DNA from: Candidatus Eiseniibacteriota bacterium
GTDB taxonomy: Bacteria > Arandabacterota > Arandabacteria > JAGLYR01
NCBI GenBank assembly: GCA_023132135.1
Contig: JAGLYR010000046.1
Span: 1-55,158, forward strand
DNA: 55,158 bases
Direction: 5' to 3'
Shown here: positions 14,001 through 24,940 of the stretch, one piece after another
Layout: each line of letters starts with the position of its first letter
How positions within the stretch are numbered: the stretch's first letter is position 1
Made by a program: the position numbers and the translations under genes
The notes under the pieces: generated by a model
Told to the model about the DNA's origin: nothing
Seen by the model: only the letters and a program-made list of their open reading frames with translations
The model's database searches: none

Positions 14001-14610
14001 CGAGCTCCGGATCGAGAGCGAGCTCAACCCGTCCCTTCTGGAAGTGATGAACGGGGGCAGGGGAACCCTCATGTACTGGGATGGGACAGACACCAGCACG
14101 TCACCGACTCCATTGTCTGTCGGGGTAGTCAACGTACTAACGGAACAGGCGGTGGAGTTCAGCTTCTCCGAACCGCCGGCGACTATTACCGGCGGGGAAA
14201 CCGTGCATGGCCTGCTCTATGGTCCGACCTTTGAATTCTCCATGGATCCGGGACAAACGAAGACCCTGCACTTGTTTGTGGGGGCACGAATGACATCAGT
14301 CGATGCCCGCGATGAGGATGCGCTGCAGTCGCGACCCCTCCGACTTCATCAGAACTACCCGAACCCTTTCAATCCGGTAACGAACATACTGTTCGAACTG
14401 CCCTCTGCGGGAGAAGTATCTCTTCGTGTGTACGACGTCCTGGGCAGGAGGGTGAGAACCCTCGTTGATGCTCTGATGCCTGCCGGGCATCATCCGGTTG
14501 TCTGGGATGGCACCGATGATGACGGACATCGGGTGTCTACGGGCCTTTACCTGTACCGGCTGGAACATGAAGGACACATCCGGTCCATGAAGATGGTCTT
14601 GCTGAAGTAG
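11038..14610 (+). CDS. secreted multidomain glycoside hydrolase family 57 protein (CBM48-like, FlgD-Ig-like, GH57 domains, T9SS C-terminal sorting domain)
   Basis: First ATG of ORF 11029..14610, giving signal peptide MARWYVALLLSSTILLPATRSFSA. CBM48/E-set-like block VRVEFRF..VNLAGSFNSW..YEYKFVVDGNQWFTDPLNP. FlgD-Ig-like block SFYLSEPTVTTVEV..YHQTVWDGRDGGG. GH57-like conserved regions LFHANQ, GQFEIIGSTYAQN, FWNAERCW, YAQDAETSG. C-terminus LHQNYPNPFNP..LRVYDVLGRRVRTL..VVWDGTDDDGHRVSTGLYLYRL is a T9SS/FlgD-type tail. Confidence 0.8.
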   Translation: MARWYVALLLSSTILLPATRSFSAPVRVEFRFQHESASTVNLAGSFNSWCNPGPGGIDTGIDPMGGPDSDSWWTLEKLLDPGDYEYKFVVDGNQWFTDPLNPRINHSNYDNSMLEVTNPLVYYLQPMDGSLESNPLPEISAYLARSDGSSFDLDELRILLDGDLVAEGAPHYDPSTHRVSFTPADTLESGMHGAKVRVALVGGALDADTTAFEIDADLSPPAIAHVPPAGASANAAVHLECTITDDQGVESARLFYRNAGGPGFVEAALHEGLEEVWTGTVVSGFTVAGTDLEYYFEADDRTNTTRDPSGGTHSIVVTPDTTPPVISEAFTSPTPFSPAWVNNETRLSFYLSEPTVTTVEVTTVGGSPVRTLISSGNLGPGYHQTVWDGRDGGGAPLPEDAYVFHINGMDAAGLPTEAVTVPVVVDNSSESGPIRVVVLFHANQTLNHYGDIANDVCFNGLLDVLRRHPQLKFAIHFSGTLLHDLSWFNFRHSPSTIDMLRAGHTDGQFEIIGSTYAQNVPYATHMWDNERQLEVHREVIQKILGAEPKIFWNAERCWKQGLVPLLADHGYQSTWVESHILWDSGSSAPEHAVRKTRLGDDEVIVFNDDGDFIGLLDSAINSGYSGDLIGYLDWLRSQDTYRDWVVCYAQDAETSGLWDYEGGGDPQDNWDNLDQVLTDLENTGWIQFTTFSEYLEDRFPTEELTPIVDGQANWMVWPSQQAGYADWFDFNERSPLLAAYRDFYTGLRARIQEVEALVSPGTPAANLVKHAIWNLAAHQFEFGCIGCGNLGCQDYQKAETLEGALLAAEACLGKRKGTGIEQVDANGDSIPDWVITTPTDLYILSDTGGRLLRWFDLNRGEEVLGNELFMWGLYYLGWRHWFSGSGYNDDQHYMDDAEWTAPNWVPAAQPFHRSYGTRKHAFNDFLSIDGGAGTVILDAGYAATVNGDTLKFTYAGSGLSITKNWIAQDAVLEVVYELSNTSGASHLYELRIESELNPSLLEVMNGGRGTLMYWDGTDTSTSPTPLSVGVVNVLTEQAVEFSFSEPPATITGGETVHGLLYGPTFEFSMDPGQTKTLHLFVGARMTSVDARDEDALQSRPLRLHQNYPNPFNPVTNILFELPSAGEVSLRVYDVLGRRVRTLVDALMPAGHHPVVWDGTDDDGHRVSTGLYLYRLEHEGHIRSMKMVLLK

Positions 14611-14623
14611 CACTGCCAAATAA

Positions 14624-14647
14624 GGAACTCCTTCGTGCTCTTCGTGG
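14624..14647 (+). repeat. CTTCGTG-triplet intergenic repeat, partial copy B
   Basis: GGAACTCCTTCGTGCTCTTCGTGG, 14 nt after the GH57 stop. The distal GTTGAAGCTTT part is missing. Confidence 0.6.
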
Positions 14648-14660
14648 ACCCCGACCGCGC

Positions 14661-15125
14661 CTACTTGAATCTGACCGCTGTCTCGCCCACCAGATCCTTC
14701 TCGCAATACCGTGGCCGGAATTTGATCGTCACCGTGCCGGATGCCCGGGTCGGCTTCTCGTAGAACTCCGAGTACGCTATGCGGCCGACCGGAAAGGCGA
14801 TCCAGCTCTGTGCTCCCTCTTTCCCGGACTTCATCTTCCGGAAACGCGACTTCAGGACAGGAAACTGCCCGCGGAACAACTCCGTCTCCGCTGTCCCGGA
14901 TTCCGCGTACGGATCGCTCCTACTCTCCGTGATCCGTACCGTGGCTGCCCCATCCGCCGTGGTCATCGTCCCCGCCACATCGCTCAACACCAGGTAAACC
15001 CCAATGGCGCCCGCGTTGTCGTCCGGTATAGCGATCACACTCGCCGAGGTTGGCGGATTGTCGTTCGGTCCGCAGGTGGGAATCAGTACCGCGGCCAGGG
15101 CCAGAAAAAGAGCCGTCCTTTTCAT
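14661..15125 (-). CDS. hypothetical lipoprotein
   Basis: 154 aa. MKRTALFLALAAVLIPTCG contains the lipobox LIPTC. No recognisable domain. Confidence 0.55.
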   Translation of the reverse strand: MKRTALFLALAAVLIPTCGPNDNPPTSASVIAIPDDNAGAIGVYLVLSDVAGTMTTADGAATVRITESRSDPYAESGTAETELFRGQFPVLKSRFRKMKSGKEGAQSWIAFPVGRIAYSEFYEKPTRASGTVTIKFRPRYCEKDLVGETAVRFK

Positions 15126-15319
15126 CGCACCACTCCCAAATGCCGGTCGTCAGAGGTGGCGTCTTCGTCGATCCAGTCCTCCTCGGTGTAGGACATGCCT
15201 TTTCGCCCCGGATTCGCGGCTGAACGCTGACAACACGGCCCGACCCCGCGACTTTCTCCATGCCGGCTTTCACCCTCGCCATCAGTCTTTGCTCCGTGTG
15301 TCGGTATTCGATTCTTCTG

Positions 15320-17164
15320 TCACGTGGATACCTCCGTTGTCGGCGTCTCGCCCTGCGCATTAGCCACGTTCTCTATGGAGGGCCTCGGCCAAATCTTCAG
15401 CGCAAGGTCGAACATCTTCTCGCCACGATCAGCGATTGTGGTTTCGTTCCATCTGGTCGCATCCTGGAACTTTCGGTTCATGGCGAGAGCGCTGTGCTCC
15501 ATGATCGCCGCCTTCTTCTCTGCCCATGCCGCGTTCGACAGCGACGGATTGAGTTTCCCGGTAACAAGTGTCAGGTTGCCGAAGCGGTGGAGCGTCTCAT
15601 TGCGTTTCGCCTCGTCTTCGGGGGTCGCATCATCCGGCATCGGCCAGTTCAGTCGCCATTCCTGTGGCATGATATGTTCGATGGTCAGTTTCTCGCGAAT
15701 GGCGATTTTCTCGGACTTGCCGTCACGCATTGCCCTTTCAATTGCCTCAAGCACCATTCGCGTCCGAGCCTGTTTCATCCATTTGTAGATCTCGTACTCG
15801 CAGAAGGCCTTTCGGAACTGGTCATCCGTCGGCCACTCCGCGCTGTCACCCTTACGAGCAAGGAGGAATGTGAGTAGCTCCGATGACGATAATCTTGTGG
15901 ACGCAAGGTGCTTGATCATGTCCACGAAGATGCGGTTGTAATTCTTATAGGTGAGGCAGCACACGGCCCGACGCACCAAGTACGATTCGAGGTAATCTAG
16001 GAACAGGTTCTTGTCTTCTTCGGAATCCGGTTTTCGGAGCACCTCAAGCAGAACGGGAATGGCCATGTTTGTGTCGAGTGCTTCCAACCGCTGGAAGAAG
16101 AGAGCCTCGCGCGACCCCTCGGGATATTGATCGAAACCGTGATAGACATCAGCATAACTCCGCAGCTGCCGAATGTGTTCCTCCGCAGCTGTTTCGTTAC
16201 CATCTGTGAAATACTCGCGGAACTCGCCAAACAGATGGGTCATGCTTACCACGTCTTTGCGTAATAGCGTCAGGTAGTGCGCAAGAAACAGATCTATGCG
16301 ATGCCATTTGAGGCGGCCTTGCCGTATCTCCTCTCGCCAGTAGGAGACATTGTCGTCGAATGGCCGCCACATCTGCTCGTAAAGAACTGGTGTATCGGCC
16401 CCCTGGCGCTGCGCCCAGTGAAACAGGAAGTTCTTCACGAGGTCTGCAGGTTGGAGAGGTGTGCCAAGAGCGTTCAGGGTTTCAAAGATGAGTTGCGGAT
16501 CATCATCGCTCCCAAGGTCCACAACAACAAGAACAAGGTCTTGCCGTATTGCGTTGAACAAGAGATCAAGCCTATCATTCAGGGCATCGCCTTCTACTCC
16601 GTCAAGCCATTCCAGAACCTGATCGTGGAAGTACTTATAACAGTTGGGAATAAGGTGGCCGTAGTCTCTGGCATTAGCCTTTACCCCATACTGCCCGGCA
16701 AGCGCGTCGAGCGACCTAGCCGTCATTGCCTGGCCGAAGTGCTCCCGGTCGACGTTGGTGGGCCAGACCTTGAAGGTGCTCTCCAGATTCTTCTTGGATG
16801 GCACGTAATTCTCCGACAGGCGTTTGAAGGCTTCCTGGTAATCCGCCGATCCTTTGACCGCACAGATGTCCCGGATCGCCGCGATCATGAGTTGAAGGGT
16901 CGTCAGGCGTTGTTGTCCATCGATCACTTGCCGCGCATCCACTTCGCCAGTCTCGGTCTTCAGTTGCTCTAGGACAATCGCGCCTAAAAAGTGGGGCCGG
17001 ACTGTGCTTCCCGTCAATCGCCGGTCGGCAGCGGTTCTAATAGACTCCCACAATGGTTCCCAGTTATCATTCTGCTTCCACACATAGGGTCGCTGGAACA
17101 AGGGAACGAGAAATCGCACTGTGGTTTCGAATACCACGCCAAGTGTTCTATCTTCCGCGTGCAT
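15320..17164 (-). CDS. GmrSD-type (DUF262 + DUF1524) type IV modification-dependent restriction endonuclease
   Basis: 614 aa. N-terminal DUF262 motifs FLVPLFQRPYVW and VIDGQQRLTTL. C-terminal DUF1524 His-Me finger-like block LTIEHIMPQEW..HRFGNLTLVTGKLNPSLSN. Confidence 0.85.
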   Translation of the reverse strand: MHAEDRTLGVVFETTVRFLVPLFQRPYVWKQNDNWEPLWESIRTAADRRLTGSTVRPHFLGAIVLEQLKTETGEVDARQVIDGQQRLTTLQLMIAAIRDICAVKGSADYQEAFKRLSENYVPSKKNLESTFKVWPTNVDREHFGQAMTARSLDALAGQYGVKANARDYGHLIPNCYKYFHDQVLEWLDGVEGDALNDRLDLLFNAIRQDLVLVVVDLGSDDDPQLIFETLNALGTPLQPADLVKNFLFHWAQRQGADTPVLYEQMWRPFDDNVSYWREEIRQGRLKWHRIDLFLAHYLTLLRKDVVSMTHLFGEFREYFTDGNETAAEEHIRQLRSYADVYHGFDQYPEGSREALFFQRLEALDTNMAIPVLLEVLRKPDSEEDKNLFLDYLESYLVRRAVCCLTYKNYNRIFVDMIKHLASTRLSSSELLTFLLARKGDSAEWPTDDQFRKAFCEYEIYKWMKQARTRMVLEAIERAMRDGKSEKIAIREKLTIEHIMPQEWRLNWPMPDDATPEDEAKRNETLHRFGNLTLVTGKLNPSLSNAAWAEKKAAIMEHSALAMNRKFQDATRWNETTIADRGEKMFDLALKIWPRPSIENVANAQGETPTTEVST

Positions 17165-17185: not shown

Positions 17186-17449
17186 CTATTGTTTCCTTCT
17201 TCCGGTTCCCCCGAGACTGTCAGCCGCTGGGCACCACCCCGACCCCACCAGTTTCGCCAGAACAGGATAGGCGACGTAGCCAGCTCCGTACTTCTGGATT
17301 GTGGCGAAGTGGTATTCATCCACCAGCCGGTCATGAATCCCACGCAGGTTTTCGGGCAATGAATTGCGCGCCTCGACGAACTTTGCGCGCTTCCGTTCGC
17401 AAGGCAGGGCAGCTTGTTGCTTCTTGTCATTATCAAGATGTCTTGTCAT
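17186..17449 (-). CDS. hypothetical 87-aa protein between res and GmrSD
   Basis: Internal ATG of ORF 17186..17575. It overlaps the res 3' end by 17 nt and stops 21 nt before the GmrSD start. Sequence MTRHLDNDKKQQAALPCERKRAKFVEARNSLPENLRGIHDRLVDEYHFATIQKYGAGYVAYPVLAKLV. No family recognised. Confidence 0.4.
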   Translation of the reverse strand: MTRHLDNDKKQQAALPCERKRAKFVEARNSLPENLRGIHDRLVDEYHFATIQKYGAGYVAYPVLAKLVGSGWCPAADSLGGTGRRKQ

Positions 17450-20400
17450 CGGTTGATATCTTTTCCGCGAACTTCTCGAAATTGTTGGCCACAGTGAATC
17501 CCACTTCTGTTCCGAGCGCCTTGAAGTGCTCACGACCGCAATCGATCTTTGCCTGCTCCGTCGGCCGGAGGGCATCGGAGAACAGACCGCCCTTAGTCTC
17601 CACCACGAAGTACAGCCGCTCCCGGCCTTCCATCTCGACCAAAACCGCCCAGTCAGGGTTGTAGCTGCCCAGCGGCGTATCGATCTTGAACCATCCCGGC
17701 AGCTTGGCGTAGACCTTCATGTCGTCGCTTAGCTCGAACGACCGGGCAAACTCCTCCTCCACGCCCGAGTCGTAAACGACATGGTCGAAGACCGACTTCT
17801 TGCTTTCCAGCATGTTCTTGCTGAGGTAACCGTACAGTTCGTTTTCCGCGAAGAGTTCCTGCGCGTAGTAGTACTCGTCGCCGAGCCTCTGGTACTTGAT
17901 GCCGTCGACGATGAACAGCTGCATCTGGTGGTTGATGATTGCTGACACCTGCTCGATGTACTTCTGCGGGTTGTTCTTAAAATCCTGGAGCCGGTCGCTC
18001 CGCTTCATGATCTCCACCAATGTTCGCCGGGTTAGGTTCGTCTCGTTTTGAAGGTAGCTGACTACATCTGGAAGCTGATAGTCGCGAGCCCCGTAGACGG
18101 CTGCGCTCTCATAAACGACTTCAGCCTGGACTCCGCCTCGATCTACGTCAAGGCGTGCCTTGCGAGTGATGAATCGGGCCCGGCCGACCACCAACGATTT
18201 CTGGATTTCTGCAGCGCATTTCTCGATCAACTTGGCCGAATCGAATTCCACGCGGAAGGTTGTCCGATACTTGATCCTATCCCACAACTGCTTGAATTCT
18301 TCGCCAAGGTACACCGCCTTGTTAAGCTTGACCAGTTTGCGGTCGTCGGCGTTCTTGATGTTCAGCTTACCGGCAACCTTTCGCAACACTGCGGTGATCT
18401 GCGCGACGTGGTCCTTCACCTCCTCCGGCAGGTTGACTTTGTCGGCCTTTAGGTCTGTTCGGAGCGAGTCCTGGACCTTCCCGTTCGCGTCGATGTAGCC
18501 CTTGGCCTTCAGGTGATCCCACACCTTCTGCGAGGTCTCCACCCCCAGGTACTCGGTCCGGTGATCGTCAGTCAGAACCGGGATGTTGGCGAACAGGTGC
18601 CTCTCGACGACGCCGAACCTGATGCCTTCTTCCTCTTCAATCTCCTTCTGCAACTGCCGGGCGAAATCCTCATAGGATTCATTAGCCATCACGGTCAGCC
18701 TGTTCACGTCGAAGCCGTGAACTCTTTTGCCCTGCTGGTTGACGGCGATTCGCAGCCCCCGTCCGATCTCTTGTCGTTTCTTCATAACCGAACTCGTCTC
18801 GTTGAGCGTGCATATCTGGAAGACGTTCGGGTTATCCCAGCCTTCCCTCAAGGCCGAGTGCGAGAAGATGAACTTCAGCTTCGAGTCAAAACTGAGCAGC
18901 CGCTCCTTGTTCCGCATGATGAGTTGGTAGGCGCTCGCGTCAGCCTGCGTCGTCCCCGCCCCGCGAGACTCCTTGAGCATGCCGTCCCCGGTCGCATCCT
19001 TCTTCTTGTCCACTGCAAAGTAGCCGTCATGGACGCCCTCGGCCGCTGTCTCCAGGTCCGCTCCCTCGAACAGGATGTGATACTTCGGCTTGCGGATCGC
19101 CCGGGCGTATTCCTCCTCGAACATCCAGGCGTACTTGCCTGGTTGCGAGTTGCCATCATCGTCGTACCAGCGATAATTCGCCACTCGGTCGATAAAGAAC
19201 AGGCTCAGCACCTTGAGACCCTGCGGCCGGAGCTGCATCTCCTTGTCCAGGTGTTCCTCAATGGTCTTGCGAATCTGGAGCCGCTTGTACTCGTCGTCGT
19301 TGACCTCGCCGATGGCTTGGTTCAGCCGCACGATTTCCGGCTTGCTGGTGAAGCTGATGTACTCGTTGCCCTTCTCGCAGTAGATATCCTCGATGATGTA
19401 GCCGTCGTACACGTTTCTGCCGCCGGAGAGGTCCAGTAGGTCATCGCCGCTGCGGACCCACTTCTTCTTTCGGGCCACTTCGCCGTTCCGCTGGACAATA
19501 TCCAGATCGATGTGAGCGCGGATCGGGCTTCTTCTGTTGTCCACCTTCAGGAGCTTGATGTACGCCTTGTTGTGGCTGTCCCGCACCTCAATACTCGCCA
19601 CCTCAATCTGCTTGACCAACTTCCGCTCGTAGGCGTCCACCGAATCGAGCCTGTACATCATGTGGTGCTTGTCGATGTGGGTCGCCGAATAACGAAGCGT
19701 GCAGAGAGGATTGAGCGACGCGATGGCCTCTTTGCTTTTTTCGGTCGTGGCCACGCTCTGCGGCTCGTCGATGATGACGATGGCACTTGTCGCCTGGATA
19801 AACTCGATTGGGCGGCTGCCGGTCATCCGGTCGTGGGGCCGGTGAATGATATTGGCCTTGTCTTCCTTCTCGGGGTCGGTGAAGCTCTTGCGGAAGGCGT
19901 CGATATTGATAACCATGATCTGAATGTAGTCGCTGGTGGCGAAGTTGCGCACCTGGCCGAGCTTCTGCGAGTCGTACACGAAGTAGTCGAACTGGACGTT
20001 ATCGTAGAGCCCCTTGAAGTGCTCCTCTGTCATCTGAAGTGACTTGTAAACGCCCTCCTTGATGGCCACGGAGGGCACCACGATGATGAACTTCGTGAAG
20101 CCATACAGCCGGTTCATCTCGAAGATCGTGCGCAGGTAAACGTAGGTCTTGCCCGTGCCAGTCTCCATCTCCACCGTGAAGTCCATCGAGCCGAGCACCT
20201 CCGAGGGGGCCAGCCCGTTGCGGAGCTGGACCGCCTTGACGTTCTCATGGATGTCCTCGTCCAGGAGGCGCAGGCGGTTGCCGATGCCAAGGTCATTCTG
20301 ATCCATTCCAGCAAACAAGCCGTCCATCTGCTTCAGCGGGGCAACTGTGAAGTTTGTCCGGCAGATCTCCTGGCCGTCGAAGAGGTCCACGACGGCACTG

Positions 20401-20450
20401 ATTGCTTCGCGCTGAAAGTCCAGATTGGGATCGAATTGAATCTTCATCAT
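17433..20450 (-). CDS. res: type III restriction enzyme Res subunit (SF2 helicase plus PD-(D/E)xK nuclease)
   Basis: Start MMKIQFDPNLDFQREAISAVVDLFDGQ (ATG at 20448-20450) within ORF 17433..20669. Walker A METGTGKTYVY, DExx box VIIDEPQS, helicase C block SHSALREGWDNPNVF. C-terminal nuclease motif YNPDWAVLVE..LYFVVETKG. Confidence 0.9.
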   Translation of the reverse strand: MMKIQFDPNLDFQREAISAVVDLFDGQEICRTNFTVAPLKQMDGLFAGMDQNDLGIGNRLRLLDEDIHENVKAVQLRNGLAPSEVLGSMDFTVEMETGTGKTYVYLRTIFEMNRLYGFTKFIIVVPSVAIKEGVYKSLQMTEEHFKGLYDNVQFDYFVYDSQKLGQVRNFATSDYIQIMVINIDAFRKSFTDPEKEDKANIIHRPHDRMTGSRPIEFIQATSAIVIIDEPQSVATTEKSKEAIASLNPLCTLRYSATHIDKHHMMYRLDSVDAYERKLVKQIEVASIEVRDSHNKAYIKLLKVDNRRSPIRAHIDLDIVQRNGEVARKKKWVRSGDDLLDLSGGRNVYDGYIIEDIYCEKGNEYISFTSKPEIVRLNQAIGEVNDDEYKRLQIRKTIEEHLDKEMQLRPQGLKVLSLFFIDRVANYRWYDDDGNSQPGKYAWMFEEEYARAIRKPKYHILFEGADLETAAEGVHDGYFAVDKKKDATGDGMLKESRGAGTTQADASAYQLIMRNKERLLSFDSKLKFIFSHSALREGWDNPNVFQICTLNETSSVMKKRQEIGRGLRIAVNQQGKRVHGFDVNRLTVMANESYEDFARQLQKEIEEEEGIRFGVVERHLFANIPVLTDDHRTEYLGVETSQKVWDHLKAKGYIDANGKVQDSLRTDLKADKVNLPEEVKDHVAQITAVLRKVAGKLNIKNADDRKLVKLNKAVYLGEEFKQLWDRIKYRTTFRVEFDSAKLIEKCAAEIQKSLVVGRARFITRKARLDVDRGGVQAEVVYESAAVYGARDYQLPDVVSYLQNETNLTRRTLVEIMKRSDRLQDFKNNPQKYIEQVSAIINHQMQLFIVDGIKYQRLGDEYYYAQELFAENELYGYLSKNMLESKKSVFDHVVYDSGVEEEFARSFELSDDMKVYAKLPGWFKIDTPLGSYNPDWAVLVEMEGRERLYFVVETKGGLFSDALRPTEQAKIDCGREHFKALGTEVGFTVANNFEKFAEKISTDDKTS

Positions 20451-20479
20451 ATTCTCTACCTTCGTCGTTTCCAAGTTGG

Positions 20480-21562
20480 TCAGTACCAGCCGTAAAGTCT
20501 GATTCCGTGCTTGCGTGTCATCGTTCGACACCAGGAATCTAGGGCGTAGGACTTGGCAACGACGTCGTCCAATTCCATTCCCGGCCTCAAGATCCGAAGA
20601 CGGATCGGAGCGCCGCCTTGCAATCCGCGCTCCACGAGGGCAATGCCGTTGTGATGTGCTCTTGCCCATTGAACGTTCTTTGTATCGTTCGGCACGTTCA
20701 AGCGAAACATGTTGTTATCCTTGTAGTAATTGTATTTCATTTGGCACGTCCGATTATCATCGGGACATGACACCTGCAGGTAGCCATCCCGACTCGTTCG
20801 CCTGCCGACAAGCCTCCGTATGACCTCGCCTGCGGCGCGAGGAAACTCAACCTGAAACATGTAGTCCCCAGTGAAAGATTGAAGGCCGGCCCACGCGGCA
20901 ACGGCGAAGACATTGCCAACCACACCCTTGCGCGGGGAACGCTGGCGACGGACTTCCGCAACAGAGCGGTGTTTCCGCCCATCGCTTACACCGAGGGCGT
21001 CAAGCTCTCCCGCGCTCCGTTTCCGATTTTTTTCGGCAAATGAGGCCGCATAGTCATTGAGGGCCACCTTGTCGGCAGCAGCAGCCCGTGACCACAATTC
21101 CTGGAAGGCGGACGATGCATCATCCACACAATCGTCGCCCGTCGATATCAGGCTGCACTCCGTGTTCTTCGACAGTCCACAGAGAGTGAGGTTCGCCGAC
21201 CCAATGCACACAAAACAGGGTTTCACAACGCCACCAGCCCTGTTGAAGCGGTCCCCGCCCACCATCAGCTTGGGGTGAAAAATGGCCGGCGGTGCCGGCA
21301 ACTTCCCCAGCTTCACTTTCCACCCTTGAGATTTCGCAATATTCAAAGCCTCGGGGTGTGTGATAAAGTGACTCGTGCCAGCAACCAAGCGACATTGCCC
21401 TACGCCAAGGCGTGCCATCGCCTTTGTCAACTTATCGAGGCCATCGGTGGTTACAAACGCCGATACAATACCAAGCACGCGAGGACGTGCTTCGCGGAGA
21501 CACGTACGGATCTTCTCATCAAGCAACTGCCCGTACCCGCTGTTTACGATGGCTTGCGACAC
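20480..21562 (-). CDS. phospholipase D (HKD) superfamily nuclease with uncharacterised C-terminal domain
   Basis: 360 aa. A single HKD-like motif FHPKLMVGGD, then CIGSANLT, within roughly the first 165 aa. Residues about 200-360 (FQVEFPRAAGEVIRRL..YLQVSCPDDNRTCQMKYNYYKDNNMFRLNVP..IRLRILRPG..YGWY) match no family I recognise. Lies between mod (49-nt gap) and res (29-nt gap). Confidence 0.8.
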   Translation of the reverse strand: MSQAIVNSGYGQLLDEKIRTCLREARPRVLGIVSAFVTTDGLDKLTKAMARLGVGQCRLVAGTSHFITHPEALNIAKSQGWKVKLGKLPAPPAIFHPKLMVGGDRFNRAGGVVKPCFVCIGSANLTLCGLSKNTECSLISTGDDCVDDASSAFQELWSRAAAADKVALNDYAASFAEKNRKRSAGELDALGVSDGRKHRSVAEVRRQRSPRKGVVGNVFAVAAWAGLQSFTGDYMFQVEFPRAAGEVIRRLVGRRTSRDGYLQVSCPDDNRTCQMKYNYYKDNNMFRLNVPNDTKNVQWARAHHNGIALVERGLQGGAPIRLRILRPGMELDDVVAKSYALDSWCRTMTRKHGIRLYGWY

Positions 21563-21611
21563 GATCCTGTATCTCCTTTCCCGACGCTGCGCGTCCGTTC
21601 TTCAATATCGC

Positions 21612-23528
21612 TTACAAGCTCTTCATAGCCTCAATTCCCGCCTGCCGTAGGATCTGAACGGCGTTCGTTTTCACAACGTCCTCCTTGAAGCCGGCATCCT
21701 TGAAAATAACACGCATGATCTCCGGTGCTAGCTCCGCCTTCAGTGCCGCGATGCCCTCAACCAAATCCAGGGTCACGCCGTCGGCTAGGCATACCACCAA
21801 GGCACCCGCACCAATGATGCAAACCATCTTGCCGTCGATCTTTCGCTCTTCTATTGGCACGGCCAGATCCAGGCCGTACTTCACCAACAGCTCGTAGAGA
21901 ACATCTCCTTCGCTACGATCGCTCTTAATGTTATCGACGGCGTTGAGGAGCGTTTCCTGCAAGTTTTCGAAGTCAGGGTCCCATGGTCTGATGTTGCTGG
22001 AATCCAACTTGAACACCTTGACCCCAAGGTCCAGGTCATGGTCATGAGCTTCATCATCCATTCCTGGCAGCGCCAATTCCGCCTCTGCGACCTTCATGTC
22101 CCGATCGGCTTCGATCTTCTGAATCACTCGGCGAATGCGCTCCTTGCCAACGTCGGCGATCGTCTTGAATCCGGCTTTGTAGGCCGCTGACTTCTTGTCA
22201 CATGGCTCCTGGATCTGCACCATCAAGAAACGTCGCGTTCCGCCATCTTCCACGTTCATCTCGAGTACCGCTTGTGCAGCCGTGCACGACCCGGCAAAGA
22301 AGTCGAGGATGATGGAGTCGGCCGCACATGAGTGTTCGATGGCACGACGGATCATGAGCACCGGCTTTGGGTTGTCGAATACCTTTTCGGCAATCAACGC
22401 GCGGAGATCGCGTGTCCCGTCGTCTGTGTTCCCAGCGTAGTCATGTGGCCAGAAGTTGACCGGCGTTAGGCCGCGCGCGTCGGAAAGGAACATCTTGATC
22501 GACGGCACCGCCTGCGTGCCGTCACTTCCCCAATACAACCGATTGTCCGCCAAAAGGCGCTCGTATTCCTCGCGGCTACGCCGCCATGCATGCGTCGTGG
22601 TTTCCGTCACATGTTTCGTGTTCGGGTTCTCGATTGGGTAGCACAAGTTCGGCCGCTGATCCGGTGTCGCCGGATTCAGAAACGATGCGCCCTTCCAAGG
22701 GCCCCGCAGATCATTGTCCGGATTGCCGTACCGCGCGTCGGCCTCCTCCGTCCGAGGCAGCAGGTTCACCATAAACGCCTCCGATTTTGCGTAGACGATC
22801 AGGTGCTCTACCACCGTCGTGAAATCCACTGTGTTGTTGCTCCGCGTGTATCGCTTCTGCCAAGCGATATCAGCCTTGAAGTTCTCCTCCCCGAAGATCT
22901 CGTTGCAGACATGCCGCAGATTATGCGCCTCATGGTCATCAATGGAGATGAAGATCGCGCCGTCATCGCGCAACAAATTGCGGGCAAGCTTCAGCCGCGG
23001 GTACATCATGTTCAGCCAGTTGGTGTGGTAGCGTCCAGATGTCTCAGCGTTTACAGTTAGTTTCCGACCTTCTTCATCCGTCTGTCCTGTCAGCTCCATG
23101 TAGTTCTTGATATTGTCACGGAAGTCGTCGGGATAGATGAAATCCCCACCGGTGTTGTACGGCGGGTCGATGTAGATCATCTTGACCTTCTTATGGTAAG
23201 ATTTCTGGAACAGCTTGAGGACTTCCATGTTGTCGCCTTCGACAAAGAGATTTTTTGTCGTGTCCCAGTTGACGGACTCTTCCGGGCATGGCCGGAGCGT
23301 GCCGGTGGACGGCGTCTGGGCGATGCGGCGTGCCCGAGCCTTCCCGTTCCAGGTGAAACTGTAGCGTTCCTGGCGGTCGTCAGCATATTCGCCGAGCGTC
23401 TCGCGCAGGGCGTCGAGGTCGACCCTTCCCTCCGTGAAGACGTCGGGGAAGAGCGCCTTCAGCTTCTCGATATTTTGCCCGACGATGTCGGTCGTTGCGC
23501 CGTCGGCTTTCGGGTCCAGCTTTTCCAT
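21612..23528 (-). CDS. mod: type III R-M Mod subunit (beta-class N6-adenine/N4-cytosine DNA methyltransferase)
   Basis: Internal ATG (23526-23528) of ORF 21612..23861, preceded by GGAGG. Begins MEKLDPKADG..ERYSFTWNGK. Motif IV IYIDPPYNTG precedes motif I ILDFFAGSCTAAQAV. C-terminal KVFKLDSSNIRPW..YELLVKYGLDL is typical of type III Mod proteins. Confidence 0.9.
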   Translation of the reverse strand: MEKLDPKADGATTDIVGQNIEKLKALFPDVFTEGRVDLDALRETLGEYADDRQERYSFTWNGKARARRIAQTPSTGTLRPCPEESVNWDTTKNLFVEGDNMEVLKLFQKSYHKKVKMIYIDPPYNTGGDFIYPDDFRDNIKNYMELTGQTDEEGRKLTVNAETSGRYHTNWLNMMYPRLKLARNLLRDDGAIFISIDDHEAHNLRHVCNEIFGEENFKADIAWQKRYTRSNNTVDFTTVVEHLIVYAKSEAFMVNLLPRTEEADARYGNPDNDLRGPWKGASFLNPATPDQRPNLCYPIENPNTKHVTETTTHAWRRSREEYERLLADNRLYWGSDGTQAVPSIKMFLSDARGLTPVNFWPHDYAGNTDDGTRDLRALIAEKVFDNPKPVLMIRRAIEHSCAADSIILDFFAGSCTAAQAVLEMNVEDGGTRRFLMVQIQEPCDKKSAAYKAGFKTIADVGKERIRRVIQKIEADRDMKVAEAELALPGMDDEAHDHDLDLGVKVFKLDSSNIRPWDPDFENLQETLLNAVDNIKSDRSEGDVLYELLVKYGLDLAVPIEERKIDGKMVCIIGAGALVVCLADGVTLDLVEGIAALKAELAPEIMRVIFKDAGFKEDVVKTNAVQILRQAGIEAMKSL

Positions 23529-23545
23529 GTGTGTTATCCTCCTGC

Positions 23546-23848
23546 CTAAAATCCGGCAGCTTTCTTCTGCAGTTGCTTCTGCATTTCCTTCATCTTCGCA
23601 TTCAGCTCCGCTTGGCGGTTGAACTGCGTTTCCTTGAACGGCTGTCCCTCTCCGGGTACTGCAGCGCTGTCGTTCGAGGGAATGAGGAGACGCAGTGCGC
23701 CTGCCCGCACCAGTTGCTTCTTCAGGGCAGAATAGCCGTAGACGGAGAAGAGGCCGGACAGGATGGCAAGGCGAGCATTCGCCTCTATGCTCTTTGCAAG
23801 AGCATCGCCAACCTTCCCTTGGCCCTTGTTGTCCAGAAGTACGGTCAT
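23546..23848 (-). CDS. hypothetical 100-aa protein (possible N-terminal fragment of a PLD-like/helicase N-domain)
   Basis: MTVLLDNKGQGKVGDALAKSIEANARLAILSGLFSVYGYSALKKQLVRAGALRLLIP. It stops 17 nt before the mod ATG and has a coiled C-terminal tail. Confidence 0.4.
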   Translation of the reverse strand: MTVLLDNKGQGKVGDALAKSIEANARLAILSGLFSVYGYSALKKQLVRAGALRLLIPSNDSAAVPGEGQPFKETQFNRQAELNAKMKEMQKQLQKKAAGF

Positions 23849-23888
23849 CTCTTTCGGTCATCCTCCATCTTCATGGTTATTTCAGCCA

Positions 23889-24101
23889 TCACTCCGGGTC
23901 CCCGGAAGGGCCATCGGCGGAATCCTCACCGTCACCTTGTCGCACCCACTCGTCTACTTCGGACAATTTGAAACGAAACAGTCGGCCGACCCTGTGCGCG
24001 GGGAAACCCTTCTTGCTTGACCAGCGATACACAGAGTCTTTGTTGACGCCGAGATGTGAAGCCACATCCTCGACCCCGACCCAGCGTTCTTCAGCAGTCA
24101 T
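23889..24101 (-). CDS. excisionase-family helix-turn-helix (HTH_17/MerR-like) DNA-binding protein
   Basis: Internal ATG (24099-24101) of ORF 23889..24314. 70 aa with WVGVEDVASHLGVNKDSVYRWSSKKGFPAHRVGRLFRFKLSEVDEWV, the classic HTH_17 pattern. Confidence 0.75.
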   Translation of the reverse strand: MTAEERWVGVEDVASHLGVNKDSVYRWSSKKGFPAHRVGRLFRFKLSEVDEWVRQGDGEDSADGPSGDPE

Positions 24102-24162
24102 TACTATTCCTCTTCGCCAGTTCTCAGCCAGACACCCACGAACACCAACGAAACCAAGCGAA

Positions 24163-24191
24163 AATATATCAAACCAAGCCGTTCCTATCAA
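24163..24191 (-). promoter_or_regulatory. near-consensus sigma70 promoter for the HTH-mod-PLD-res block
   Basis: The minus strand reads TTGATA (24186-24191), 17-nt spacer, TATATT (24163-24168). About 60 nt upstream of the HTH ATG. Confidence 0.45.
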
Positions 24192-24475
24192 GGGCAAAAA
24201 CTGCGCGTGTCGGTGCCGCATCTTGCCATGCCAAAAAATCGGGCCCAAAGTATTGGCGTACAATCGGTTGATATTGCGGGCATGGCCGGGTTTGCCAGGG
24301 ATCAGAAGAAACACATCTGCAAAGGATTAGGTCTAGAAATGTGGCATGGCAAGATCCGACCTCAAGGCCTAAGCGGACCACGGGAGCGGGAAACGCTTTG
24401 ATGCCATTTCCAGAATAGATTCCGCAGACAGCATCTGCGGTTTTCCGGATGGTGTCCGGATTTTCGTCGGCGCCG

Positions 24476-24536
24476 ATTCTATCGACACTGTCGAGAGAAT
24501 TGGATTGTCCAATTCTATCGGCGGTGTCGAGAGAAT
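24476..24536. promoter_or_regulatory. pair of 25-bp operator-like palindromes
   Basis: ATTCTATCGAC-ACT-GTCGAGAGAAT (24476-24500) and ATTCTATCGGC-GGT-GTCGAGAGAAT (24512-24536), joined by the palindromic linker TGGA-TTG-TCCA. Confidence 0.4.
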
Positions 24537-24650
24537 TCGCTAAGGGTACACACCCAGCCAAGGTTACCAGTTCGGATTCGGCAGACGGCGTCTGCCAAAT
24601 CTGGCAGTCACCGCCACAGACTGCTGTGCATTTGTTGCGGGCGCTCGACT

Positions 24651-24864: not shown

Positions 24865-24940
24865 TCGGGATTGCGGGACGTGAGTCCCGAAATCCCGAGA
24901 AGAACTCCTTCGTGGGCTTCGTGGTCGGAGCTTTTCAGAG
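24865..24940 (+). repeat. composite repeat, copy C: inner palindrome plus CTTCGTG repeat
   Basis: TCGGGATTGCGGGAC-GTGA-GTCCCGAAATCCCGA (24865-24898), then AGAACTCCTTCGTGGGCTTCGTGGTCGGAGCTTTTCAGAG. Same layout as the right half of the 48823-48959 element. Confidence 0.8.

What the first reader, a model, noticed from the sequence alone, without database searches (positions are those of the whole stretch)
20480..21562. HKD/PLD-family nuclease inserted between mod and res of a complete type III R-M system
Seen in sequence. A 360-aa ORF with a single HKD-like motif (FHPKLMVGGD..GSANLT) in its N-terminal half sits 49 nt after mod and 29 nt before res. It is on the same strand with no terminator-like hairpin on either side. 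Res still carries its own PD-(D/E)xK nuclease (YNPDW..VVETKG), so the operon encodes two unrelated nuclease folds. Established knowledge. Canonical type III systems are two-gene mod-res. Single-HKD nucleases fused to a C-terminal B3-like DNA-binding domain are the R-proteins of BfiI and of the ATP-dependent CglI/NgoAVII systems, where they need a separate SF2 helicase-like N-protein. DISARM also uses a PLD protein (DrmC). Inference. The roughly 160-aa C-terminal domain here (..YLQVSCPDDNRTCQMKYNYYKDNNMFRLNVP..IRLRILRPG..) could be a DNA-binding module. The locus could then be a hybrid in which a CglI/NgoAVII-like R-protein is driven by, or backs up, the type III Res translocase. I am not aware of a described mod-PLD-res arrangement.
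Basis: partly seen in the sequence, partly recalled or inferred. Interest (0 to 1): 0.78.

Follow-up and report, generated by a model that had tools for sequence, protein, structure and literature searches.

The report
BfiI-like nuclease inside type III operon
A gene between the methylase and the motor-nuclease of a type III restriction system encodes a second, unrelated DNA-cutting enzyme with its own DNA-reading domain, and this uncharacterised protein family almost always sits beside a DNA methylase whose target-reading region is unusually conserved.

Summary
ORF 20480-21562 (-) is a real 360-aa gene between a complete type III mod and res, on the same strand.

- **N-terminal half:** a PLD/HKD nuclease domain with H96, K98, N124 and E135 invariant in the 28 aligned homologues.
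- **C-terminal half:** no sequence match, but it is predicted with high confidence to be a B3-like DNA-binding barrel. The best full-length fold matches include BfiI and R.NgoAVII.
- **Family:** small (279 proteins) and with a fixed architecture.
- **Context:** of 44 genomic loci, 30 carry type III mod+res beside it, in three gene orders. Seven carry a methylase, fused to an Mrr-like domain wherever checked, and two lie in haloarchaeal methylase loci (one DISARM/Druantia-like).
- **Control:** about half of related mod-res loci hold other unrelated genes in the same gap, so position alone proves nothing.
- **Key result:** Mods linked to this protein share one target-recognition-domain type. Median pairwise identity is 0.73, against 0.30 in sister Mods with equally similar catalytic cores.

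My reading is a methylation-guarded, BfiI-like second restriction nuclease that reads the Mod site independently. Whether it also needs the Res motor is unresolved. I found no published description. I rate it a new variant of a known kind.

The parts
21612..23531 (-). Type III mod. This is a beta-class N6-adenine methyltransferase with a DPPY motif. The TRD is roughly residues 215-390. The real start is MEKLDP at 23531, not the longer ORF that runs to 23861.
   Evidence: PADLOC MTase_III scores 718 bits over the full length, and Pfam N6_N4_Mtase matches. PDB sequence hits are the H. pylori Mod 6k0w and the EcoP15I Mod 4zcf.
21563..21611 (-). The 49-nt mod-PLD spacer, with AAGGAG at 21573-21578. 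It holds no terminator-like hairpin.
20480..21562 (-). The PLD-B3 gene itself: 360 aa, GTG start, TGA stop.
21092..21508 (-). PLD/HKD nuclease domain, residues 19-157. The catalytic stretch H96-x-K98 ... G121-S-x-N124 ... E135 maps to 21158-21277.
   Evidence: Pfam PLDc_2 matches at E 2.7e-8. H96, K98, N124 and E135 are invariant in 28 homologues. The family profile hits the SauUSI PLD domain at E 3.6e-7. Foldseek hits include BfiI, SauUSI, NgoAVII, Nuc and Zucchini.
20483..20920 (-). Predicted B3-like (pseudobarrel) DNA-binding domain, residues ~215-360.
   Evidence: AF2 of residues 195-360 gives pLDDT 91.6. The 14 best Foldseek PDB hits are all B3 domains: VAL1, UbaLAI-B3, NGA1, TEM1, FUS3, RAV1, LEC2, VRN1 and LlaJI.R1-N. 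There is no Pfam or PDB sequence hit. The domain is found almost only at the C-terminus of ~335-365 aa proteins.
20454..20479 (-). The 26-nt PLD-res spacer. It holds no terminator-like hairpin.
17433..20453 (-). Type III res: an SF2 helicase-like motor plus a C-terminal PD-(D/E)xK endonuclease (residues 885-991, coordinates 17481-17801).
   Evidence: PADLOC REase_III scores 1142 bits, and Pfam ResIII and RE_endonuc match. The motifs are intact.
15320..17164 (-). Neighbouring GmrSD-type (type IV) restriction enzyme. It is part of the same defence island but not of the three-gene unit.
   Evidence: Pfam GmrSD_N and GmrSD_C match, and PADLOC mREase_IV scores 310 bits.
23889..24314 (-). HTH_17 (AlpA/excisionase-like) gene upstream of mod. 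It is a possible regulator or a mobile-element remnant.
   Evidence: Pfam HTH_17 matches at E 1.6e-12.

Best explanation
**What it is.** The gene encodes a metal-independent HKD (PLD-superfamily) endonuclease fused to a B3-like DNA-reading domain. This is the same two-domain design as BfiI and the R-proteins of NgoAVII/CglI.

**How it most likely works.**
- By analogy with BfiI, two copies dimerise through the PLD domains to build one active site. This step is inferred.
- The B3-like domains bind a specific DNA sequence. This step is inferred.
- The protein is a restriction effector whose only safeguard is the methyltransferase encoded beside it, here the type III Mod. It reads the same site as the Mod TRD but independently of it, and Mod methylation blocks it.
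- In this operon it therefore acts as a second nuclease, mechanistically unrelated to Res, that shares Mod's self-marking. Res keeps its own working motor and PD-(D/E)xK nuclease.

**Shown here:** the gene, the domains, the intact catalytic residues, the conserved methylase linkage and the frozen Mod TRD.

**Inferred:** dimerisation, sequence-specific binding, blockage by methylation and any contact with Res.
For: 1. PLDc_2 domain with H96, K98, N124 and E135 invariant across 28 homologues.
2. The AF2 model has pLDDT 90.5. BfiI is the top full-length Foldseek hit (E 2.4e-11) and R.NgoAVII is fourth (1.9e-7).
3. The CTD alone retrieves only B3 DNA-binding domains in its first 14 hits, including the restriction-enzyme B3 domains of UbaLAI and LlaJI.R1.
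4. The CTD occurs almost only in this fixed architecture: 121 representatives among 1.84 billion proteins.
5. Every informative locus has a DNA methyltransferase within a few kb, directly adjacent in most (an IS element intervenes in L020).
   - 30 of 44 loci have type III mod+res, in the orders mod-PLD-res, PLD-mod-res or mod-mod-res-PLD.
   - 7 of 44 have an N6_N4 methylase; an Mrr_cat fusion was confirmed in the two checked by Pfam (L006, L013).
   - 2 of 44 are haloarchaeal methylase systems.
   - Sources.
6. Eight independent metagenomic look-ups gave 5 type III loci and 3 two-gene methylase modules flanked by housekeeping genes. One of those sits between fabD and fabG. This is the layout of a self-sufficient R-M pair.
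7. Specificity lock-in.
   - Among 27 PLD-linked Mods, median pairwise identity is 0.63 in the catalytic core but 0.73 in the TRD. The TRD is the more conserved region in 73% of pairs.
   - Among 79 sister Mods without the PLD gene, the values are 0.59 and 0.30, and the TRD is more conserved in 1% of pairs.
   - A frozen TRD is what one expects if a second protein must recognise the same sequence, as in type II systems.
   - The two-gene modules show the same pattern: TRD 0.74 against N-terminal catalytic region 0.54.
8. The B3 domain is more conserved than the PLD domain.
Against: - There is no biochemical data for any family member.
- B3 identity does not track the two Mod TRD subtypes beyond shared phylogeny.
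- B3 domains of type III-linked and two-gene members are about as similar to each other as members within a group, although their methylase TRDs are only ~25% identical.
- Type III Mod methylates one strand only. Each replication therefore yields fully unmethylated sites, which an autonomous BfiI-like enzyme should cut. Some extra control is needed and is not identified: Res, site orientation or expression level.
- Three Mods of the same TRD type were seen without a PLD gene, although two of those contigs are truncated on the res side (L046, L047) and L048 has only short flanks.
- Fold scores for the B3 assignment are moderate (E ~1e-3, TM 0.4-0.58).
Confidence: 0.55

Rival explanations
1. Motor-coupled hybrid. 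The PLD-B3 protein would be an integral third subunit that is recruited or activated by the type III Res/Mod complex. After ATP-triggered sliding or translocation, the HKD site and the Res PD-(D/E)xK site would each cut one strand. This resembles R.CglI with H.CglI, or a split version of SauUSI.
For: - The genes are tightly co-oriented, with 10-90 nt spacers, across three gene orders.
- 30 of 44 loci include Res.
- The closest solved protein by sequence profile is the PLD domain of the motor-nuclease SauUSI, and the match includes the linker helix (E 3.6e-7).
- In haloarchaeon L028 the protein sits among a DrmD SNF2 helicase and a YprA/DruE-like helicase.
- The model would solve the hemimethylation problem, because type III site-orientation control would then govern the PLD nuclease too.
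- In CglI one R2H2 complex has a single active site and needs 1D communication along the DNA (PMC5737866).
Against: - Close relatives (48-52% identity) function beside a methylase with no helicase at all.
- Res keeps its own nuclease in 21 of 22 linked loci, so no nuclease is missing.
- There is no DEAD-Z1 partner.
Confidence: 0.22
2. DrmC-like accessory. The protein would be a non-essential auxiliary nuclease that degrades or processes DNA already nicked or cut by the main system. The B3-like domain would be a general DNA clamp rather than a sequence reader.
For: - Weak PLD-motif matches to DrmC, DpdK and ZacB.
- In L028 the family member occupies the DrmC slot of a DrmD/DrmMI/helicase locus.
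- PLD3/4 and Zucchini-type PLD nucleases, which act on single-stranded nucleic acids, are among the fold hits.
- Lack of B3-TRD co-variation.
Against: - DrmC and DpdK model scores are far below cutoff (14 bits against 133 and 100).
- DrmC proteins lack a B3 domain, and most carry a 4-helix bundle instead (PMC12458937).
- A pure clean-up nuclease would not explain the two-gene methylase+PLD-B3 modules or the frozen TRD.
Confidence: 0.13
3. Unrelated hitch-hiker. The gene would be an independent defence or selfish gene that landed in a permissive slot of the operon and has no functional tie to mod or res.
For: In sister type III loci, 29 of 57 mod-res pairs are separated by more than 500 nt carrying other same-strand genes. 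These include AlbA_2/HATPase_c_4, RhuM, YhcG/DUF1016, OLD-family, SIR2+HerA, GmrSD_N and ORF6N. The slot is clearly an insertion hotspot.
Against: - Unlike that cargo, this family is found next to a methylase in every informative locus and next to type III mod+res in 30 of 44. It takes three different positions relative to them.
- It is tied to one Mod TRD type.
- It was not found on plasmids or phages.
Confidence: 0.05

Closest known systems
BfiI (type IIS, metal-independent restriction endonuclease; PDB 2c1l)
   Same: - It has an N-terminal single-HKD PLD nuclease plus a C-terminal B3-like DNA-binding domain in a ~355-aa protein.
- It is the best full-length fold match (E 2.4e-11).
- The catalytic H, K, N and E residues are kept, and N124-E135 are spaced 11 residues apart. 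My recollection, not tested here, is that BfiI and Nuc have the same N-to-E spacing.
- The two-gene methylase+nuclease modules of the family resemble a type II pair.
   Different: - There is no detectable sequence similarity (not found at E<=10 with single-sequence or profile searches).
- The HxK-to-GSxN spacing is longer.
- The partner is one beta-class N6/N4 methylase (type III Mod, or a methylase-Mrr fusion). BfiI, from my own knowledge rather than a test here, has two cytosine methylases.
- Here it is embedded in a type III operon.
R.NgoAVII / R.CglI with their DEAD-Z1 ATPase (N/H) proteins
   Same: - Three-gene layout of methylase, PLD+B3 nuclease and SF2 helicase-like ATPase.
- R.NgoAVII is a top full-length fold hit (E 1.9e-7).
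- Cleavage logic that needs communication along DNA (PMC4267653, PMC5737866).
   Different: - The ATPase here is a complete type III Res with its own PD-(D/E)xK nuclease, not a nuclease-less DEAD-Z1 protein.
- The methylase is a type III Mod (N6-adenine type, DPPY motif), not a stand-alone C5 methylase.
- The family also exists without any ATPase.
- No sequence-level relationship was detected.
Canonical type III R-M (EcoP15I, EcoPI) and the three-gene variants of Murray et al. 2021 (PMC8259958)
   Same: - Mod and Res are full-length and intact.
- Type III systems with a conserved extra gene have precedent: a helicase-like ATPase 5' of mod in hundreds of systems.
- Many relatives of this locus carry an SNF2 helicase (usually with DUF4391) upstream of mod, which resembles that extra gene.
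   Different: - The extra gene here is a nuclease with its own DNA reader, not an ATPase.
- Its presence goes with a frozen Mod TRD, whereas type III TRDs are normally hypervariable.
- The window itself lacks SNF2 and DUF4391.
SauUSI / MANTIS MtsD (PLD nuclease fused to an SF2 motor)
   Same: - SauUSI is the closest solved sequence match for the PLD domain and the following linker (E 3.6e-7).
- Both use a dimeric single PLD active site coupled to helicase-like ATPases.
   Different: - Those proteins are single polypeptides, whereas here the nuclease and the motor are separate genes.
- SauUSI targets methylated DNA through its own target recognition domain, whereas this protein carries a B3-like domain instead.
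- There is no evidence here for contact with the motor.
DISARM DrmC / Dpd DpdK
   Same: - Each is a small PLD-family nuclease encoded as an add-on to a methylase-plus-helicase defence system.
- One haloarchaeal family member sits in the DrmC position.
   Different: - Model scores are far below cutoffs.
- DrmC and DpdK have no B3 domain.
- The window has no DrmA or DrmB.

Membership tests
PLD/HKD superfamily nuclease | Match to a PLD domain model above the curated cutoff | tested here: met
   Pfam PLDc_2 scores 34.1 bits against a cutoff of 27, E 2.7e-8, over residues 19-157.
PLD/HKD superfamily nuclease | Catalytic HxK ... GSxN ... E residues present and conserved | tested here: met
   H96, K98, G121, S122, N124 and E135 are invariant in 28 homologues. 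GSxNLT and N..E align with SauUSI.
PLD/HKD superfamily nuclease | Metal-independent phosphodiesterase activity through a covalent His intermediate | not testable with these tools
   This needs biochemistry.
BfiI / R.NgoAVII-type PLD+B3 restriction endonuclease | Two-domain architecture: N-terminal single HKD domain plus C-terminal B3-like DNA-binding barrel | tested here: met
   This rests on predicted structure only. Full-length Foldseek hits are BfiI at 2.4e-11 and NgoAVII at 1.9e-7. The CTD alone gives 14 of 14 top hits as B3 domains.
BfiI / R.NgoAVII-type PLD+B3 restriction endonuclease | Sequence-level family membership | tested here: not met
   There is no Pfam family other than PLDc_2 at E<=0.1. 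BfiI and NgoAVII are absent from PDB sequence and profile searches at E<=10.
BfiI / R.NgoAVII-type PLD+B3 restriction endonuclease | Sequence-specific DNA binding by the B3 domain, blocked by cognate methylation | not testable with these tools
   Indirect support only: obligatory methylase adjacency and the frozen TRD.
CglI/NgoAVII three-component ATP-dependent system | Partner DEAD-Z1 helicase-like N/H protein without a nuclease | tested here: not met
   The adjacent ATPase is a type III Res with an RE_endonuc domain. No Z1 protein was seen in any locus examined.
CglI/NgoAVII three-component ATP-dependent system | Stand-alone C5-cytosine methyltransferase partner | tested here: not met
   The partner is an N6_N4_Mtase, a type III Mod with a DPPY motif.
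Type III restriction-modification system (the operon) | Mod methyltransferase with a central TRD, plus Res with SF2 motifs and a C-terminal PD-(D/E)xK nuclease, co-oriented | tested here: met
   MTase_III scores 718 bits and REase_III 1142 bits. Motifs are listed. PDB hits are 6k0w and the EcoP15I Mod.
Type III restriction-modification system (the operon) | Two-gene composition | tested here: not met
   A third conserved gene is present here and in 30 related genomic loci.
DISARM (DrmC) | DrmC model above cutoff, with DrmA and DrmB (helicase plus DUF1998) in the locus | tested here: not met
   NCBIfam DrmC_I scores 14.2 bits against a cutoff of 133. PADLOC DrmC is E 2.6e-3 over the motif only. 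The window has no DrmA or DrmB.
Dpd (DpdK) | DpdK model above cutoff, with dpd genes nearby | tested here: not met
   The score is 14.1 bits against a cutoff of 100.

The most novel reading that the evidence does not exclude
The three genes could encode one machine. This would be a type III-derived restriction complex in which the target site is read twice, by the Mod TRD and by the B3 domain of a PLD dimer. The Res ATP switch or motor would bring the HKD active site and the PD-(D/E)xK site together, and each would cut one strand. That would be a natural hybrid of type III and CglI/SauUSI logic. Its cost would be a specificity that can no longer drift, which would explain the frozen TRD. The same plug-in nuclease would then serve methylase-Mrr modules and DISARM/Druantia-like helicase systems in archaea.
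Probability: 0.2. Interest if true: 0.8.

Novelty: new variant of a known kind. Interest (0 to 1): 0.62.

Why it matters
Type III systems are taught as two-gene units in which one TRD serves both methylation and restriction. That arrangement lets specificity change freely. Here a conserved lineage, spread across many phyla, adds a nuclease of a different fold with its own DNA reader, and the Mod TRD in that lineage stops varying.

- **A testable evolutionary rule.** A second independent reader locks specificity.
- **A possible new enzyme source.** The family may supply metal-independent restriction enzymes.
- **A tractable model for PLD add-ons.** The roles of such nucleases in methylation-based defence (for example DrmC and DpdK) are not settled.
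- **An annotation point.** These proteins are currently labelled only 'PLD-like domain protein' or 'hypothetical'. PADLOC and NCBIfam give the protein only weak, sub-threshold matches, and the public records carry only generic names.

Tried and rejected
- **CTD by sequence.** Searches with Pfam, NCBIfam, PADLOC, and PDB phmmer and profile gave nothing. Only structure prediction identified the fold.
- **DrmC and DpdK membership.** Rejected on scores far below the cutoffs.
- **B3 against Mod-TRD co-variation.** Spearman correlation of pairwise identities is 0.53, no higher than B3 against the Mod catalytic core (0.52). The L023/L034 TRD subtype has no matching B3 subtype. This gave no usable signal.
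- **TRD profile scoring of the two-gene methylases.** They score 25-36 bits on the TRD profile and 15-28 bits on the N-terminal catalytic-region profile. This is only suggestive of a shared TRD lineage.
- **Distant PLD homologues in the mod-res gaps of 80 metagenomic Mod loci.** None were found. The gaps hold unrelated genes.
- **Plasmid and phage collections.** No homologue was found.
- **Replacement of a dead Res nuclease.** Rejected, because PD..ExK is intact in 21 of 22 linked Res proteins.
- **Mrr_cat catalytic status in the fused methylases.** Ambiguous: the motif is SVK or QIK in place of (E/Q)xK. I did not pursue it.
- **Literature.** Six full-text searches found no description of this arrangement.
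Full report
**1. The observation**

- The window comes from a Candidatus Eisenbacteria metagenome-assembled genome. An identical protein, P0001, is on record.
- On the minus strand the gene order is HTH_17 gene (23889-24314), mod (21612-23531), the 360-aa ORF (20480-21562), res (17433-20453) and a GmrSD type IV enzyme (15320-17164).
- The spacers are 49 nt (mod to ORF) and 26 nt (ORF to res). The ORF has a GTG start with AAGGAG 10 nt upstream.
- No terminator-like hairpin lies in either spacer.
- Pfam PLDc_2 covers residues 19-157 (E 2.7e-8, above the curated cutoff). Residues ~190-360 match nothing in Pfam, NCBIfam or PADLOC.
- Mod and Res are unambiguous, complete type III subunits (PADLOC 718 and 1142 bits). 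Res has an RE_endonuc PD-(D/E)xK domain, and Mod matches the solved H. pylori and EcoP15I Mods.

**2. The protein**

- A search of 5.8 billion proteins found 279 homologues. Nearly all are 350-360 aa and align end to end.
- In 28 diverse members, H96, P97, K98, G121, S122, N124, N133 and E135 are invariant. This is the full HKD catalytic set. My recollection, not tested here, is that BfiI and Nuc have the same N-to-E spacing.
- The C-terminal half is at least as conserved. It carries motifs AAWAGLQSFTGEY, FQVEFPRAAG and MFRLNVPN.
- AlphaFold2 gave a confident model (pLDDT 90.5, pTM 0.86). The best PDB fold matches were BfiI (E 2.4e-11, aligned over both domains), SauUSI and R.NgoAVII (E 1.9e-7). 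After these came the single-domain PLD nucleases Nuc, NucT, Zucchini and PLD3.
- I modelled residues 195-360 alone (pLDDT 91.6) and searched again. The first 14 hits were all B3/pseudobarrel DNA-binding domains. They include plant VAL1, NGA1, RAV1, FUS3, LEC2, TEM1 and VRN1, and the restriction-enzyme B3 domains of UbaLAI and LlaJI.R1. E-values ran from 9e-4 to 1.5e-2, with TM 0.40-0.58 on the target.
- Sequence and profile searches did not find BfiI or NgoAVII. The closest solved sequence is the PLD domain of the motor-nuclease SauUSI (E 3.6e-7).
- A profile of the C-terminal domain, run against 1.84 billion representative proteins, found only 121 hits. Almost all have the domain at the C-terminus of a ~335-365 aa protein.
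- This is therefore a small, dedicated PLD+B3 family. Public records call it only 'PLD-like domain-containing', 'phospholipase D family' or 'hypothetical'.

**3. Genomic context of the family**

A scan of one genome per prokaryotic species returned 44 loci. They span Proteobacteria, Verrucomicrobiota, Acidobacteriota, Planctomycetota, Spirochaetes, Desulfobulbaceae, Binatia and Halobacteria. I located Mod and Res relatives in them by tblastn.

| Context | Loci |
|---|---|
| mod-PLD-res (as in the window) | 9 |
| PLD-mod-res | 20 |
| mod-mod-res-PLD | 1 |
| PLD-B3 with an N6_N4 methylase nearby and no helicase (Mrr_cat fusion confirmed in L006 and L013; L020's methylase is cut short by an IS1595 insertion) | 7 |
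| Haloarchaeal methylase loci | 2 |
| Fragments or uninformative | 5 |

- The type III loci are all co-oriented and closely spaced.
- The methylase-Mrr_cat pairs are sometimes flanked directly by housekeeping genes.
- One haloarchaeal locus (L028) reads DrmD-like SNF2, DrmMI-like methylase, PLD-B3 and a YprA/DruE-like helicase, which puts the family member in the DrmC slot. The other (L033) pairs it with an Eco57I-type methylase.
- Eight further look-ups of metagenomic homologues gave five type III loci and three two-gene methylase-Mrr_cat modules.
  - Four of the five type III loci are preceded by an SNF2 helicase and DUF4391.
  - One two-gene module is inserted between fabD and fabG.
- No homologue occurs in the plasmid or phage collections.
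The constant partner, however, is the methyltransferase rather than the helicase.

**4. A necessary control**

- I fetched 80 metagenomic loci through the Mod protein instead.
- None contains the PLD gene.
- In 29 of the 57 loci where both mod and res are visible, the two genes are separated by more than 500 nt of same-strand ORFs.
  - These ORFs include AlbA_2/HATPase_c_4, RhuM, YhcG/DUF1016, GmrSD_N-AlbA_2, an OLD-family nuclease, SIR2+HerA and ORF6N.
- The mod-res gap of this type III subfamily is therefore a general landing site for defence cargo. Position alone does not show functional integration.
- An SNF2 helicase, often followed by DUF4391, upstream of mod is also common across the subfamily, with or without the PLD gene. 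This resembles the extra helicase-like ATPase reported 5' of mod in hundreds of type III systems (PMC8259958). The window lacks both genes.

**5. What sets the PLD-B3 gene apart from that cargo**

- It keeps its association with mod/res through three different gene orders and deep divergence. PLD-domain identity between the two main clades is only ~30-35%.
- It is tied to one Mod specificity class. Relative to the window Mod:

| Mod set | Identity in N-terminal catalytic region (residues 90-210) | TRD identity (residues 215-390) |
|---|---|---|
| PLD-linked Mods | 59-74% across the set | 71-81% in 22 loci, 52-55% in 4 |
| Unlinked Mods | 55-76% | 18-49%, with three exceptions |

- The three exceptions are L046-L048; L046 and L047 are cut short on the res side, and L048 is a 2.8-kb contig with little flank on either side.
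- All-against-all comparison gives the same result:

| Set | Median catalytic-core identity (90-210 + 391-450) | Median TRD identity | Pairs with TRD more conserved than core |
|---|---|---|---|
| 27 PLD-linked Mods | 0.63 | 0.73 | 73% |
| 79 unlinked Mods | 0.59 | 0.30 | 1% |

- The sampling bias runs against this result. The unlinked set was chosen as the best matches to a profile that includes the TRD.
- The two-gene modules show the same pattern: methylase TRD 0.74 against N-terminal catalytic region 0.54.
- Res is not degenerate in the linked systems. Walker A, DEPQ and PD..ExK are intact in 21 of 22 (L022 has NSN for NPD). The PLD nuclease is therefore an addition, not a replacement.

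**6. Mechanism**

- The best-supported reading is that the protein is a BfiI-type restriction endonuclease.
  - It would form an HKD dimer with one metal-independent active site.
  - Its B3-like domains would read a defined sequence.
  - Only the neighbouring methyltransferase would keep it harmless.
- In type I and III systems one TRD serves both methylation and restriction, so specificity can drift. Once a separate reader must recognise the same site, a change needs two simultaneous mutations, as in type II systems. That predicts the frozen TRD that is observed.
- The two-gene modules argue that the nuclease can work without a motor.
- In the window it would then be a second effector that shares Mod's self-marking with Res. 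One speculative benefit is robustness against phage factors that block Mod/Res.
- Shown here: the gene, the domains, the catalytic residues, the linkage and the TRD conservation.
- Inferred: dimerisation, sequence-specific binding, methylation sensitivity and any benefit.

**7. Open problem and rivals**

- Type III Mod methylates one strand only, so replication produces fully unmethylated sites. Type III enzymes tolerate this because they need inversely oriented site pairs. An autonomous BfiI-like enzyme would not obviously tolerate it.
Other points in its favour are the SauUSI-like PLD domain, the helicase-rich haloarchaeal context and the CglI precedent. I give it about 0.2. The helicase-free modules count against it as a general rule.
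- A DrmC-like clean-up role (about 0.13) does not explain those modules or the frozen TRD.
- A pure hitch-hiker (about 0.05) is contradicted by the linkage statistics.
- Two points count against strict 'same-site' reading.
  - B3 identity does not track the TRD subtypes.
  - B3 domains are equally similar across contexts whose methylase TRDs share only ~25% identity.

**8. Comparison with known systems and novelty**

- The design is that of BfiI and R.NgoAVII/R.CglI. However, sequence-level membership, the DEAD-Z1 partner and the C5 methylase partner all fail when tested.
- The operon is type III in every respect except its gene count.
- DrmC and DpdK membership fails on score.
- Six full-text searches and several targeted readings found no description of a PLD/B3 gene within type III operons. 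REBASE could not be consulted.
- I classify the finding as a new variant of a known kind. It is of solid interest to restriction-modification and defence-system specialists, and it is directly testable.

Noticed in passing
window 14625-14647 and 24902-24924: A 23-nt direct repeat (21 of 23 identical, 10,277 bp apart) brackets the lower-GC stretch (0.54-0.57 against ~0.60). That stretch holds a small lipoprotein-like ORF, GmrSD, res, PLD-B3, mod and the HTH_17 gene. The repeats could be att-like borders of an inserted defence island. No integrase was looked for or noticed in the island, and no tRNA gene is present. The match could also be chance.
   Followed up: partly
window 24473-24537: Two copies of a 29-nt near-palindromic repeat, 36 nt apart, lie in the ~0.6-kb non-coding region upstream of the HTH_17 gene. 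They look operator-like.
   Followed up: no
window 15320-17164 (-): A full-length GmrSD-type type IV (modification-dependent) restriction enzyme lies 268 nt downstream of res on the same strand. The island therefore combines nucleases aimed at unmodified DNA with one aimed at modified DNA.
   Followed up: partly
L045-L124 (metagenomic type III loci): In 29 of 57 loci the gap between mod and res carries other same-strand genes: AlbA_2/HATPase_c_4 (6 loci), RhuM (4), YhcG/DUF1016 (2), GmrSD_N-AlbA_2, an OLD-family nuclease, SIR2+HerA and ORF6N. The mod-res junction of this type III subfamily is a hotspot for embedded defence genes.
   Followed up: partly
L001-L004, L007, L009, L125, L127, L133, L134 and many PLD-free loci: An SNF2 helicase, often followed by a DUF4391 protein, lies directly upstream of mod in much of this type III subfamily. 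The closest relatives of the window operon therefore have five genes (SNF2-DUF4391-mod-PLD-res), and the window has lost or never had the first two. This resembles the extra ATPase described in PMC8259958.
   Followed up: partly
L028 9944-11002 (Halobacteriales MAG): A family member sits between a DrmMI-like methylase (preceded by a DrmD-like SNF2 helicase) and a 1765-aa YprA/DruE-like helicase with an MZB/DUF1998 domain. This is the DrmC position of a DISARM/Druantia-like archaeal system.
   Followed up: partly
L129 2969-5678; L135 6001-8672; L136 6001-8862; L013 8393-11062: Compact two-gene modules pair PLD-B3 with an N6_N4 methylase fused to an Mrr_cat/NA-iREase1 domain. They are convergent or co-directional and inserted among housekeeping genes; in L129 the insertion is between fabD and fabG. 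In every main context a PD-(D/E)xK-fold domain accompanies the PLD nuclease.
   Followed up: partly
L009 2878-6958; L031 7709-13005: Two loci carry two Mod genes with different TRDs beside one Res and one PLD-B3. One Mod has the PLD-associated TRD type or its divergent subtype (L031 76%, L009 52% TRD identity to the window) and the other is unrelated (19-26%).
   Followed up: no
L022 Res (13020-15995): This is the only PLD-linked Res with the PD motif changed (NPDW to NSNW). The Res nuclease may be inactive there, which would leave PLD-B3 as the sole nuclease.
   Followed up: no
window 21612-23861 and 17433-20669: The mechanical ORFs for mod and res extend ~110 and ~72 codons upstream of the real starts (23531 and 20453) and overlap the preceding genes. 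These extensions are ORF-calling artefacts, as alignment with homologues shows.
   Followed up: yes
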